A DNA stretch of 20,872 bases from a virus (taxonomy: Duplodnaviria; Heunggongvirae; Uroviricota; Caudoviricetes): IMG/VR virus record IMGVR_UViG_2526164630_000021; one strand, given 5' to 3'. This document shows, one piece after another, positions 16,301 through 19,300 of this stretch (position 1 is its first letter; every line of letters begins with the position of its first letter). A program made the position numbers.

Positions 16301-19300
16301 GTGATGATACGCAGACGACGGTAGGCCGGGTCGTTCAGCTGAGCCGGATCTTCACCGGGAAGACGCTCAACCGCCTGCTGGTAATTAAATTCGTGTTTCG
16401 GCTTGACGTAGCCCGGACGTAACACGCGGGTTTCACCACCACGATGACGCAGCACTTTTCCTTCAACAACCGGGGAAACATAGGCCGCCACCGGCGTTTT
16501 TCCGGTAATTTTGTCCAGCATCACCTCTTCGGTATGGAAATTCACCGTACGGCGGAAAAACAGCTCCAGAAACAGCGCACGAAATTTCACTTTTTGTTCG
16601 GTATAACCGAGTAACTGGCGGGTCGTAAACAATCCCATAAATCAGTTCCTTTCATTCAGAAATCAGTCAGGCCACCGCGGTGGCCTGATAACGTGTTACG
16701 GCAGCGCCGCGTGACTCAGGGCACTGCCGGCAAAGGCGTTGGCCTTTTTGTGTTCATCCACACTGTCAGGCCAGCGGATTGCCTCCGTCGCAAAGGTCCC
16801 CGACTTGTAATACGTCAGTACCGTCTCTGTGCCTTCAAGCGGCAGTACCAGTATGCCAACCGCACTACCGGCTTTCTGTCCGTCCCAGACCACCAGTTTC
16901 CCGGTAGCTTCATCCAGCATCAGGGGCGTCAGTGCCGGTGTTGCCGAGGAAATCCCGCTGCTGCCTGTGGCGGTATGAGCCGGATCATTACCGGCAAAAA
17001 TACGTACTTCCGCACGCTGTTCAGTGATGGTTTTCGTTACCATATTGTAAAAACCTCCTGTTGATGGTCAGCACTGACTTCATGGCATGGCCATGAGCAT
17101 TTTCACATCCGCATCACCGTCTGCTGACGTCTGTGGCACGCCACCCTGTACCGCTGCCGGTGAATGGTTCGCCATGATGCGTTCAAACAGGGCGGTTGTG
17201 GATGCAGAGACCGGTTCTGCCTTACCTGATCCCGCAGCCAGCACAGCCCGGGCGCTCTCCACAGTCATTCCCGGGCAGGCAGCCAGCTGTTCAGCCTGCG
17301 CCTCAGCCCCTTTTGCCTCATCCAGTGCCATGATCTGATCACGGAGTGAGGGTCCGGCATCCGCCTGCGGTGAAGCAGCCAGGATCGGGCGGGCTTTTTC
17401 CACCGTCATCTCCGGCATCGCCGCCAGCGTTGCCGCCAGTTGTTCACGACCGTTCGCTTCTTCACACGCCATAATGCGATCGGCTTCACTCTGCGTGGAT
17501 GCCACCGGCTGCTGCGGTGCCGCCGCGGCCAGAATCGCCCGGGCCTGTTCAACGCTCATGCCCTGTTGTCCTGCCAGCATCGTGGCAAGCTGTTCACGTC
17601 CTTTCGCTTCCTGGCATGTCAGGATCCCCATCACTCTCTGGTTCTCCTGCGCGGCGGCTTCCGTTGCAGTTAATTGCGGCATAGTGCCTCCTCTGACATT
17701 ACTGTTCAGCGCCGTGGCCATCACACTGATGGCATCCGACGCATTGATTAATTCATCCGCCAGCCCGGCCTCAATGCCGGACTGACCTTCAAAAACGGCG
17801 GCCTCTGTTCCCGTGACGGCATCAACAGACAGACCGGTATACATCGCCACTTTTTCAGCAAACATCCGGCGCGCCGCATCAATGCGCTGTTGCATGTCCT
17901 GGCGAACCTCTGCCGGCAACGCTTCAAACTGATTGCCATCCACCTTGTGCGCCCCTGAGTAAATCAGCGTGATATCAACACCGGCCTGCGCCAGATGACC
18001 GGCATAGCTGACATGGCTCATCATCACGCCAATGGAGCCGATACGGGATGTCTGGGTAACCAGCCGTCGGGAGCAGGCCGACGCCAGCAGCATGGCTGCA
18101 GAGCAGGCCGTGTCATTGCACAGTGCCCAGACCGGCTTCTGCTGACGGAGGCGGTAAATCATGTCAGCGCAGTCAAACGCGCCGGCGGCCTGCCCGCCCG
18201 GACTGTCAATGTCCAGCAGTATGCCCCGCACCTGGCTATCTGCCATTGCCTGCTGAAGACAGGCGACAATACCGTCATAGCCTGTCATTCCGGAAAATGG
18301 CCGCATACCCCCCAGCCGGTGCACCAGCGTGCCGGTCACCGGCAGTACAGCAATACCGTTCACCACCCTGTAAACACGGGCCGGTCGTTTACCTCCGGCC
18401 ATGTACTCGTCCGTTTCAGCCAGCATTCCGGGAGCATCAAACTGTACCTGCTGTTGTGGTACCGAAAGACTTGATGCCCCCATCTCGCGCCCGAGCGCGC
18501 AAAAGAAAACCCGCGCATAGGCGGGCTCCAGAAGCAGCGGTTCATTGAATGCTGCGGCAATAATGTGTGAAAGATTACGTCTCACGTGGTGTTGTCTCCT
18601 CTTCCGGCCTGCGACTCTCCGCTATCTGCTGCTGATACGCCTGCGCTATCCACACCGGACGTGAGAGTCCGGCTTTTTGTCGCTCAGCAGATTCCCTGAC
18701 CTGCTGGCGGAAAATGTCCTGATAATCCTCGCCCATCAGCGCCAGCTCTTTCTCATACGTGCTCAGTCCGGCCTCAATGCGCATCACTGATTCCTGGACT
18801 TCCTTGAGCCCGTCAATGGCCATTCTTCCGGCACCAATCCACTCAGCCCGTGACCAGGCTGATCGCGCCAGATAAAAATCAAAACGCGCCCGTGGCGGAC
18901 GGATAATCCCCCGAAGAAGTGCCTCTTCCAGCCAGCAGGAAAACATCTGCGTGGCCAGCCGGGACGCAATAAATTTTCGTCGTCCCATAAAATAGCGCCA
19001 CGACTCATTGGCGGAGGCGCGGGCACTTGAATAACTGACCTTCGAGTAATCCCGGGACAACTGTTCGTAGGAAACGCCAAGACCGGCGGCGATATACCGC
19101 AGCAGCGCCTGTTCAAGCGCCGAAAATCCATTGTCTGAATCCTGCGCAGTCTGCAGTTTCAGATCATCACCGGGGAAAAGGTGCGGAATTTTGACACCGC
19201 CCAGCGTCACGTTATTCGTGTCATACCAGCTGGAGAACTTCTCCAGAATATTAATAAGCGGATTATCCTTCTGCCCCTGCGGCGCACCGGCGATATATTC

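What the first reader, a model, noticed from the sequence alone, without database searches (positions are those of the whole stretch)
16667..16688. Perfect 22-bp palindrome between the D and E genes
TCAGGCCACCGCGGTGGCCTGA is fully self-complementary and lies 8 nt after the D stop and 29 nt before the E start. As RNA it would form a very stable hairpin, with no clean U-run after it. It could act as a transcript-stabilising or processing structure, a partial terminator tuning the D:E ratio, or a binding site for a dimeric protein.
Basis: seen in the sequence. Interest (0 to 1): 0.35.

Follow-up and report, generated by a model that had tools for sequence, protein, structure and literature searches.

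The report
Capsid-gene spacer hairpin in phage 21-type prophage
The palindrome is real and most likely forms an RNA hairpin at the end of the head-decoration gene message of a phage 21-type prophage; this is an ordinary, already recognised kind of spacer structure in lambda-like phages, and its exact job (probably protecting the message from decay) is untested.

Summary
The 22-bp perfect palindrome is at 16667-16688 and is unlikely by chance (1 of 300 shuffles reaches that length). The genes are on the minus strand. The palindrome lies 7 nt after the stop of the D homologue (shp) and 28 nt before the start of the E homologue (gp7). The window is about 98% identical to the phage 21 head operon, and phage 21 carries the identical palindrome.

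The sense RNA folds into a 9-bp stem with a 4-nt loop (-16.8 kcal/mol) and has a poor U tail.

Related phages have hairpins of different sequence at the same place. Lambda, N15 and phi80 carry a canonical terminator there, and the N15 GenBank record annotates it as a putative terminator. Gifsy-1, Trabulsiella, another E. coli prophage and a Vibrio phage also have one. Nearly all also have a second hairpin after E. The structure is conserved, not the sequence or the perfect symmetry, which argues against a protein-binding site.

Most likely it is an intra-operon terminator-like hairpin. RNA polymerase carrying the phage Q antiterminator would read through it, and it would then act mainly as a 3' exonuclease barrier. 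The mechanism is inferred.

Verdict: an ordinary new member of a known kind, of low interest.

The parts
16667..16688 (-). Core hairpin, the perfect 22-bp palindrome. Sense RNA is UCAGGCCAC-cgcg-GUGGCCUGA: 9-bp stem, 4-nt loop, -16.8 kcal/mol.
   Evidence: length reached in 1 of 300 shuffles
16662..16692 (-). Possible extended stem. GUUA (16692..16689) pairs with UGAU (16665..16662) across a bulged C16666, which puts UUCUGAAU directly after the stem.
   Evidence: RNAfold results; terminator-like score -21 (this 31-nt stem) to -9 (a 29-nt variant, 16691..16663), still below threshold
16639..16666 (-). Leader of the E gene. It holds an imperfect U-rich tail (CUGAUUUCUG), two GA|UUU matches to the RNase E motif RN|WUU (16664..16660 and 16643..16639), and the Shine-Dalgarno AGGA (16650..16647).
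   Evidence: motifs; the hairpin does not change predicted RBS accessibility; RBS as annotated in M81255. In E. coli GPEC79 (L260) similarity to this leader (UUUCUGAAU...) is apparent by eye downstream of that strain's own hairpin (similarity further upstream not tested).
16696..17043 (-). Head decoration gene (lambda D / phage 21 shp homologue, 115 aa). The hairpin sits at its 3' end.
   Evidence: Pfam HDPD, E = 5.5e-25; 98% DNA identity to phage 21 over the spacer region spanning the end of shp; shp annotation
15610..16638 (-). Major capsid gene (lambda E / phage 21 gene 7 homologue, 342 aa).
   Evidence: Pfam Phage_cap_E, E = 2.7e-66
15573..15602 (-). Partner hairpin after E: GCGGGGGC-gaaa-UGCCCCCGU, followed by GUCUUUUUU. 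It is terminator-like (score +6) and lies in the 51-nt E-FI gap.
   Evidence: compensatory G-C to A-U change in L088; equivalent hairpins after E in lambda, N15, phi80, Gifsy-1, Chi, K280, AH2, phi2LM21 and PhAER-1

Best explanation
The palindrome encodes a hairpin in the sense (minus-strand) late mRNA, placed at the 3' end of the head-decoration cistron of a phage 21-type prophage. It belongs to the class of intra-operon, terminator-like hairpins that flank the two most heavily used capsid genes (D and E) in lambda-like head operons.

Shown here:
- the sequence, its position and the fold;
- hairpins of unrelated sequence at the same position in relatives;
- a partner hairpin after E;
- a weak U tail in this version.

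Inferred:
- Late transcription by Q-modified RNA polymerase reads through the hairpin. Q forms a nozzle on the RNA-exit channel that prevents terminator hairpins from forming (PMC9388147, 10.1101/651190).
- The hairpin folds behind the polymerase. After endonuclease cuts in the AU-rich leader just downstream (GA|UUU sites), it blocks 3'-to-5' exonucleases, so the D-containing upstream segment lives longer. This is the malE-malF type of 3' protective structure (PMC5927463).
- The E segment would be protected in the same way by its own downstream hairpin.

Any termination at this hairpin, for example of polymerase that has not been Q-modified, is expected to be weak. The perfect symmetry, including the loop, is probably incidental.
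For: - Identity: the window spacer region is 98% identical to the phage 21 head operon, which carries the same palindrome.
- Fold: 9-bp stem and 4-nt loop, -16.8 kcal/mol; the 86-nt region has z = -2.4.
- Position: the hairpin lies in one of three gaps longer than 30 nt in the head operon. Two of these (D-E and E-FI) hold the perfect hairpins; the C-D gap does not.
- Structure kept while sequence turns over: 21-type, Gifsy-1 (GAAGGCCGC-gaa-GCGGCCUUU), T. guamensis (AAUCGGGUC-guuuca-GACCUGAUU), E. coli GPEC79 (AGCCGC-auu-GCGGCU followed by UUUGUUUUUU), lambda/N15/phi80/Kluyvera/Buttiauxella/Citrobacter type (GCCGC-nnnn-GCGGC + U7, free loop, A-U/G-C/G.U exchange at depths 6-7), and Vibrio K280.
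- The N15 record annotates both stem-loops as putative rho-independent terminators.
- Alleles within the lineage: the common ones change the loop or the closing pair and keep at least 8 bp (CAUG, G14U, G14C, C10U, C12U). C6U gives a G.U pair valid only in the sense RNA. Alleles with an internal stem mismatch are rare, about 6% of fetched contigs.
- In E. coli GPEC79 (L260) similarity to the window's E leader is apparent by eye downstream of that strain's hairpin, although the alignment that found L260 began about 19 nt further upstream. The Gifsy-1 match begins only about 4 nt before the E ATG. This suggests, but does not establish, that the hairpin belongs with D.
- The only RN|WUU motifs in the spacer lie downstream of the hairpin.
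- Terminator-type score is sub-threshold (-23 to -9) against +22 to +37 for the lambda type, +31 for the trp attenuator and +43 for the window's own lom terminator. If the function is shared across the types, it cannot depend on a U tract.
Against: - There is no expression, 3'-end or half-life data, so the mechanism is inferred.
- Within the 21 lineage there is no compensatory change: 0 pairs changed on both sides, and the covariation score is no better than shuffles.
- The 22-mer is more variable than its flanks, with 9 of 22 variable sites against 3 of 38.
- Only 1001 of 1870 E. coli records are identical over 40 nt.
- Stem-breaking alleles exist.
- More distant relatives that have both D and E lack a D-E hairpin: Chi, KLER1-1, phi2LM21 and Aeromonas PhAER-1, where D and E overlap.
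- Coding regions of this G+C-rich window contain equally stable hairpins.
- From my own knowledge, not checked here: Sampson et al. 1988 (PNAS 85:5439) attributed differences in lambda late-protein yield mainly to translation initiation rather than to mRNA amounts.
Confidence: 0.5

Rival explanations
1. The hairpin is a weak intrinsic terminator or insulator. It stops or attenuates polymerase that has not been modified by Q, such as spurious transcription entering the capsid genes in the lysogen. Alternatively it terminates a fraction of late transcripts to lower downstream expression. Q-modified polymerase reads through it.
For: - The consensus scan flags it as terminator-like: 9 pairs and 5 T in an 8-nt window.
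- With the extended stem, a UUUCU run follows directly.
- The positional counterparts in lambda, N15, phi80, K280 and E. coli GPEC79 are canonical terminators, scoring +22 to +37, and are annotated as putative terminators in N15.
- PMC8022706 proposes exactly these two roles for intra-operon terminators in the P22/L late operon, and states that their roles are not known.
Against: - The score is -23 (core) to -9 (extended stem), against +31 and +43 for bona fide terminators scored the same way.
- The first three tail bases are C, U, G.
- Attenuation between D and E has no obvious benefit, since both are needed in roughly equal, very high copy number (my own knowledge of lambda capsid composition).
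- This reading is not exclusive of the best explanation.
Confidence: 0.25
2. The structure is neutral. The palindrome is a by-product of mutation (for example template switching at quasi-palindromes, or symmetric C-to-T hotspots) in a spacer that only needs to be a spacer, and it has no selected function.
For: - The 22-mer is the most variable stretch of the spacer.
- There is no covariation within the lineage.
- Stem-breaking alleles persist, and about 46% of E. coli records differ within 40 nt.
- The CGCG to CGTG to CATG series is two C-to-T changes at symmetric positions, and the intermediate is observed in L077.
- D-E hairpins are absent in Chi, KLER1-1, phi2LM21 and PhAER-1.
- Many carriers are probably defective prophages; this window has an IS3-family transposase next to J fragments.
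Against: - At least five hairpin classes of differing sequence occupy the same short spacer in different lineages, most with perfect or near-perfect stems of 7-9 bp. A matching hairpin after E shows a compensatory change.
- High-frequency alleles spare the stem.
Confidence: 0.15
3. The hairpin controls translation. It either insulates the E ribosome-binding site from upstream sequence or uncouples E initiation from D termination.
For: It lies between the D stop and the E Shine-Dalgarno sequence, and E must be translated very efficiently.
Against: - The predicted unpaired probability of the SD-AUG region is 0.58 in wild type, 0.52 +/- 0.07 with the hairpin shuffled, and 0.59 with it deleted.
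- The hairpin ends 16 nt before the SD.
- In the lambda type the hairpin sits at a different distance from the D stop.
Confidence: 0.05
4. The palindrome is a DNA site: a binding site for a dimeric protein, a cruciform, or another DNA-level signal.
For: - Perfect two-fold symmetry including the centre.
- The second most common allele (CATG centre, for example in an ST131 strain) is again a perfect palindrome.
Against: - The sequence is not kept in relatives with the same gene order, whereas the structure is.
- Alleles G14T, G14C, C10T and C12T are asymmetric.
- C6T is tolerated as a G.U pair only at the RNA level.
- The 40-nt stretch containing the 22-mer occurs only in this context in 1870 E. 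coli records, and no Rfam or repeat family matches it.
- A 22-bp G+C-centred palindrome is a poor candidate for cruciform extrusion (established knowledge, not tested here).
Confidence: 0.03

Closest known systems
Stem-loops between genes 7 and 8 (D-E) and after gene 8 (E) of phage N15, annotated 'putative rho-indep. transcription terminator' in NC_001901, and the equivalent lambda and phi80 D-E hairpin
   Same: Same operon and the same two positions (after the decoration gene and after the major capsid gene), on the sense strand. G+C-rich stem of 5-9 bp with a 4-nt loop.
   Different: No sequence similarity. The lambda/N15 type has a U7 tract and scores as a canonical terminator (+22 to +37), whereas the window hairpin has the tail CUGAUUUCUG and scores -23 to -9. 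It also sits 7 nt after the stop, against 20-33 nt in the lambda type.
Intra-operon terminators of lambdoid late operons, such as the one at the end of the procapsid module in P22 and phage L (PMC8022706)
   Same: A predicted hairpin inside a single Q/gp23-antiterminated late operon, next to the capsid genes. The role is stated to be unknown; proposed roles are partial termination or stopping spurious, non-antiterminated transcription.
   Different: A different head-gene family (P22-type), and those were predicted as full rho-independent terminators.
3' protective RNA structures in differentially decaying operons (malE-malF, menBCE) and the papBA arrangement (PMC5927463)
   Same: A stable intergenic hairpin immediately downstream of a highly expressed cistron, with RN|WUU-like sites in unstructured RNA next to it. 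Consecutive hairpins after successive genes occur, as in menBCE.
   Different: Those cases have measured half-lives and mapped ends; none exist here. The malE-malF element is a REP repeat, whereas this palindrome occurs at a single site and in this context only.

Membership tests
Intrinsic (rho-independent) terminator | G+C-rich stem of about 5-14 bp with a 3-8 nt loop on the transcribed strand | tested here: met
   9 bp (6 G-C pairs), loop CGCG, -16.8 kcal/mol
Intrinsic (rho-independent) terminator | U-rich tract immediately after the stem | tested here: not met
   The tail is CUGAUUUCUG with tail score 1.1. The overall d-type score is -23 (core) or -21 to -9 (extended stem). The same script gives +31 for the trp attenuator, +43 for the window's lom terminator and +22 to +37 for lambda/N15-type D-E hairpins. 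The score uses modern energy parameters, so the threshold is approximate.
Intrinsic (rho-independent) terminator | RNA 3' ends or termination measured at the site | not testable with these tools
   No transcript data are available here. Term-seq of E. coli O157:H7 Sakai exists (PMC7547250, data in GEO) but could not be read.
3' protective (exonuclease-blocking) structure of a polycistronic mRNA | Stable structure directly downstream of the stabilised cistron, in the sense RNA | tested here: met
   The hairpin starts 7 nt after the D stop. One allele makes a G.U pair that is valid only in the sense strand.
3' protective (exonuclease-blocking) structure of a polycistronic mRNA | Structure conserved among relatives | tested here: met
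   Hairpins of unrelated sequence occupy the same spacer in at least five further lineages. Within the 21 lineage there is no covariation, so that part is inconclusive. The hairpin is absent in four distant relatives.
3' protective (exonuclease-blocking) structure of a polycistronic mRNA | Endonuclease cleavage downstream, and a longer half-life of the upstream segment | not testable with these tools
   The only evidence is two RN|WUU motif matches downstream of the hairpin and none in the 7-nt gap upstream. About 0.4 matches would be expected by chance in 28 nt (my own estimate).
REP/BIME or other dispersed palindromic repeat | Many copies at different intergenic sites | tested here: not met
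   One copy in the window even with 3 mismatches allowed. All listed E. coli matches (42 of 1870 records) lie at the end of the head-decoration gene.
Any curated RNA family (Rfam 15) | Match reaching the family's gathering score | tested here: not met
   The best overlap is isrG at 10.5 bits against a gathering score of 100 (E = 5.3), which is noise.
Palindromic operator for a dimeric DNA-binding protein | Conserved, symmetric half-sites among relatives that keep the function | tested here: not met
   Asymmetric alleles occur (G14T in roughly 10% of fetched contigs; G14C, C10T and C12T rarer). The sequence is replaced outright in relatives.

The most novel reading that the evidence does not exclude
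The hairpin after D and the hairpin after E together form a conserved post-transcriptional module of lambda-like head operons. It would raise the lifetime of the two capsid messages within one 20-kb late transcript. On this reading the phage 21 version, which has kept the stem but lacks a U tract, is a natural separation-of-function allele: it would show that the selected activity is the exonuclease barrier and not termination. That would make the old question of how one late transcript yields very different protein amounts directly testable with arm-swap mutants.
Probability: 0.3. Interest if true: 0.4.

Novelty: new member of a known kind. Interest (0 to 1): 0.15.

Why it matters
It matters little on its own. 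The hairpin sits in a prophage module found in about a third of complete E. coli genomes (1865 of 5426). It illustrates a rule for lambda-like head operons: the spacers after the decoration gene and after the major capsid gene keep a hairpin even when their sequence is replaced.

If the decay-barrier role were shown, it would add an mRNA-stability layer to the control of capsid protein supply. It would also give a practical rule for phage engineering and D-fusion display vectors: keep the hairpin with the D cassette.

Tried and rejected
- Rfam scan of 15400-17200 at permissive thresholds: only noise.
- Covariation test on 12 alleles of the 21-type hairpin: no compensatory pairs, because divergence is too low. 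This is uninformative rather than negative.
- I first read contig L033/L168 as an alternative D-type hairpin. It is in fact the right end of an IS200C insertion, confirmed in E. coli B19429, so I withdrew that reading.
- RBS-insulator idea: predicted SD-AUG accessibility is unchanged by shuffling or deleting the hairpin.
- RNase III substrate: a stem of 9-13 bp is too short by established knowledge. Not pursued.
- Bidirectional terminator: the plus-strand tail TAACGTGTTACGG has no T run.
- Literature: nine searches found no paper on the D-E spacer of lambda or phage 21, and no 3'-end map of a lambdoid late operon. One attempt to fetch a lambda ribosome-profiling paper under a PMC id recalled from memory found nothing held under that id.
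- The genome-contig scan used a single peptide pattern and returned only 45 loci, about 25 of them lambda DNA contamination.
- The promoter-like hit in the C-D gap (17071..17044, 9 of 12 matches) is no more than chance: 1 found against 3.1 expected.
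Full report
**Observation**

The 22-mer TCAGGCCACCGCGGTGGCCTGA occurs once in the window, at 16667-16688, and is perfectly self-complementary. It is the longest perfect palindrome in the 20.9-kb window. Only 1 of 300 dinucleotide-preserving shuffles produced one as long.

The flanking genes are on the minus strand:
- 16696..17043(-) is a head-decoration protein (Pfam HDPD).
- 15610..16638(-) is a major capsid protein E (Pfam Phage_cap_E).
- 15184..15606(-) contains an FI-like gene. By the phage 21 annotation the real start is at 15558.
- 17080..18585(-) is the S49 protease/scaffold gene.

On the sense strand the order is: TAA stop of D (16698..16696), 7 nt, the palindrome, 28 nt holding the AGGA Shine-Dalgarno sequence, then the ATG of E (16638). 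The rest of the description is correct.

**Identity of the locus**

The D-E region (221 nt around the spacer) is 98% identical to the phage 21 head operon (M81255, OL657228; genus Jouyvirus), where the genes are called shp and 7. Phage 21 has the identical palindrome. Its GenBank record annotates ribosome-binding sites and 'Tri boxes' but not this stem-loop.

The same junction is present in 1865-1867 of 5426 complete E. coli genomes, and in every listed hit it lies at the end of a gene annotated as head decoration protein. It is therefore not a dispersed repeat. It also matches no Rfam family.

**The fold**

The sense RNA forms a 9-bp stem (6 G-C pairs) with a CGCG loop, at -16.8 kcal/mol. Four further pairs across a bulged C can extend it (16692..16662).

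The tail is CUGAUUUCUG. I scored terminator likeness with a d'Aubenton-Carafa-type formula using modern energy parameters, so the threshold is approximate:

| Element | Score |
|---|---|
| Window D-E hairpin, core | -23 |
| Window D-E hairpin, extended stem | -21 to -9 |
| trp attenuator (control) | +31 |
| Window's own terminator after lom | +43 |
| Lambda/N15-type D-E hairpins | +22 to +37 |
| Gifsy-1 D-E hairpin | +7 |

So this is a strong hairpin but at best a weak intrinsic terminator.

Stability alone is not exceptional. Seven coding-region windows on the same strand fold as well or better. What is distinctive is a perfect stem sitting in a true intergenic gap. The head operon has only three gaps longer than 30 nt:
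- C-D, 36 nt, with no hairpin;
- D-E, 57 nt, with this hairpin;
- E-FI, 51 nt, with the hairpin GCGGGGGC-gaaa-UGCCCCCGU followed by GUCUUUUUU.

**Comparison with relatives**

This is the main evidence. The D-E spacer of lambda has an unrelated sequence but also holds a hairpin, AAAGGCCGC-cugu-GCGGCUUUUUUU. N15 and phi80 have the same type, as do prophages of Kluyvera, Buttiauxella, Trabulsiella odontotermitis, Dryocola, Citrobacter and an Aeromonadaceae MAG. In that group the loop varies freely (CUGU, CUGC, UUGC, UAUC, CAUC, UCUG, GGAU, AUC, CAGC). The base of the stem exchanges A-U, G-C and G.U pairs.

The N15 GenBank record annotates both the D-E stem-loop and one after E as 'putative rho-indep. 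transcription terminator'.

Other hairpin types occur at the same position:
- Gifsy-1 (D 72% identical to the window's D): GAAGGCCGC-gaa-GCGGCCUUU, 6 nt after the stop.
- Trabulsiella guamensis (D 67% identical, 21-type E): AAUCGGGUC-guuuca-GACCUGAUU.
- E. coli GPEC79: a different D allele followed by a canonical terminator, AGCCGC-auu-GCGGCU then UUUGUUUUUU. This runs into a leader resembling the window's E leader, UUUCUGAAU-AAAGGAAC.
- Vibrio phage K280: AAAAGAGCC-uuuau-GGCUCUUUUUU.

A hairpin also follows E in lambda, N15, phi80, Gifsy-1, phage 21, Chi, K280, AH2, phi2LM21 and PhAER-1. In locus L088 that hairpin carries a compensatory G-C to A-U change relative to the window.

The D-E hairpin is not universal. 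In Chi, KLER1-1, phi2LM21 and Aeromonas PhAER-1/L131 the two genes are 0-28 nt apart or overlap, and there is no hairpin.

In GPEC79, similarity to the window's E leader is visible by eye downstream of the hairpin, though the alignment that found that locus started about 19 nt further upstream. The Gifsy-1 match to the window begins only about 4 nt before the E ATG. This hints that the hairpin belongs with the D module, but the boundaries were not mapped.

**Variation within the phage 21 lineage**

About 200 fetched contigs gave 12 alleles without indels. Counts are of fetched loci and include some contigs fetched twice.

| Allele | Loci | Effect |
|---|---|---|
| Reference | 133 | perfect palindrome |
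| CAUG loop | 24 | again a perfect palindrome |
| G14U | 19 | opens the closing pair, leaving 8 bp |
| G14C | 5 | opens the closing pair, leaving 8 bp |
| C10U | 4 | loop change |
| C12U | 1 | loop change |
| C6U (with C10U) | 2 | makes a G.U pair valid only in the sense RNA |

The CAUG-loop allele was also seen in an ST131 strain. Alleles with an internal stem mismatch (G17U, G17A, U15C, G16A, and one 1-nt deletion) are each rare and together make up about 6% of loci.

The CGCG to CGUG to CAUG series is two C-to-T changes at symmetric positions, and the intermediate is observed. The second perfect palindrome therefore needs no selection for symmetry.

Formally there is no covariation in this shallow sample. 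No pair is changed on both sides, and 94% of cells are paired, the same as in shuffles. The 22-mer is also more variable than its flanks, with 9 of 22 variable sites against 3 of 38. In E. coli genomes, 1001 of 1870 records are identical over 40 nt. Within the lineage the data are compatible with mild purifying selection on the stem, but they do not prove it.

**Mechanism**

The steps shown are the position, the fold, the strand, the retention of structure across sequence turnover, the partner hairpin after E and the weak U tail. The rest is inferred.

Lambdoid late operons are transcribed from one promoter by Q-modified polymerase. Q21 and Q-lambda form a nozzle on the RNA-exit channel that prevents terminator hairpins from forming (PMC9388147, 10.1101/651190). 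During lytic growth such hairpins should therefore be read through and fold only behind the polymerase.

In E. coli operons, intergenic hairpins directly downstream of a cistron block PNPase and RNase II after RNase E has cut downstream. This stabilises the upstream segment. Known examples are malE-malF, the consecutive hairpins of menBCE, and the papBA variant (PMC5927463).

The window fits that layout. The only two RN|WUU-type motifs of the spacer (GA|UUU) lie downstream of the hairpin, the first 2 nt after it, which puts the predicted cut 4 nt after the stem. The phage 21 version keeps a strong stem without a proper U tract, while its positional counterparts are full terminators. For that reason I favour the exonuclease barrier as the shared function and put termination second.

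Casjens and co-workers state that the roles of such intra-operon terminators are unknown. They propose partial termination or the stopping of non-antiterminated transcription (PMC8022706). That remains a serious rival and does not exclude the barrier role.

Other readings fare worse:
- A translational insulator role got no support in silico. SD-AUG accessibility is 0.58 in wild type, 0.52 +/- 0.07 with the hairpin shuffled and 0.59 with it deleted.
- A protein-binding DNA palindrome is contradicted by the asymmetric alleles and by outright sequence replacement in relatives.
- A neutral origin cannot be excluded, given the variability within the lineage and the absence of the hairpin in distant relatives.

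**Comparison with what is known, and verdict**

The closest known things are:
- the annotated N15 stem-loops and their lambda counterpart (same positions, different sequence, with a U tract);
- the intra-operon terminators of P22/L late operons;
- the 3' protective structures of E. coli operons.

The element fails one defining feature of an intrinsic terminator, the U tract. I therefore do not file it as one, although it may work weakly like one.

It is a new, unannotated member of a known kind in a phage sequence long available in GenBank (M81255). A specialist would not be surprised. Interest is low (0.15).

The most novel reading still open is that the hairpins after D and after E form a conserved mRNA-stability module, with the phage 21 hairpin as a natural termination-minus allele. 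I give that about 0.3 probability and moderate interest if true.

Noticed in passing
window 801-5639 (minus strand): An IS3-family transposase ORF (1355..2242, Pfam rve + HTH_21) lies between a C-terminal receptor-binding fragment of tail-tip protein J (801..1304, Ig_GpJ_C) and two long ORFs upstream (4101..5639 and 2593..4212). I assume, without testing, that those two ORFs are the rest of J. If so, the prophage's J gene is disrupted and the prophage is probably defective.
   Followed up: partly
window 7016-8610: A P22 antirepressor-like gene (7016..8020, minus; P22_AR_N and P22_AR_C) lies beside a divergently oriented Arc-like ribbon-helix-helix gene (8251..8610, plus). Together they look like an immI-type insert. 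It sits between an ORF at 8630..9325 that I take to be tail gene L (not tested) and a Prok-JAB/NlpC-P60 ORF at 6224..7000 (K-like).
   Followed up: partly
window 86-734 (minus strand): A Lom/Ail outer-membrane protein gene (135..734) is followed by a canonical intrinsic terminator, GCCCGCC-gguuca-GGCGGGC + U6 (117..86). It has the highest terminator score of any element scored here (+43).
   Followed up: partly
L261 (E. coli B19429, NZ_CP142919.1) 395-1105; also L033/L168 (IMGVR_UViG_2654587509_000011): An IS200C element (IS200/IS605 family) is inserted in the D-E spacer about 6 nt downstream of the hairpin (…GGCCTGACTGATT | IS | TTTCTGAATG…), in the same orientation as the late genes. Its own terminal hairpins now sit between D and E. 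The same right-hand junction is seen in an IMG/VR contig.
   Followed up: yes
window 16699-16729 (minus strand): The last 31 nt of the D coding sequence can form a second strong hairpin (CGGCAGUGCC…GGCGCUGCCG, -20.1 kcal/mol) that ends at the stop codon, in tandem with the palindrome. One arm changes in the CATG-loop lineage (G to T, giving a U.U mismatch), so it is probably incidental.
   Followed up: partly
window 12477-12508 and 14166-14197 (minus strand): There are terminator-like hairpins with U runs on the sense strand: GGGCUGA…UCAGCC followed by UGUUUUUUU at 12508..12477, and GGGGCGAC…GUCGCCCC followed by GCUGUUUUU at 14197..14166. By the ORF list they lie inside the ORFs 12211..12624 and 13856..14251, which I take to be tail genes (G/T region and U); these ORFs were not scanned.
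   Followed up: no
L103-L130 (genome-contig hits): About 25 assemblies of unrelated taxa (Akkermansia, Kitasatospora, Bradyrhizobium, Neobacillus, Enterococcus and others) carry D-gene matches with the same score and identity as the lambda-type loci. They are mostly on short contigs, several labelled with coverage near 1x or below. This looks like lambda control-DNA contamination of the assemblies.
   Followed up: no
L088 about 4434-4470 versus window 15582-15602: The hairpin after E shows a compensatory double change between close relatives (GCGGGGGC/GCCCCCGU against GCGGGAGC/GCUCCCGU). This is the clearest single piece of covariation seen for the capsid-flanking hairpins.
   Followed up: partly
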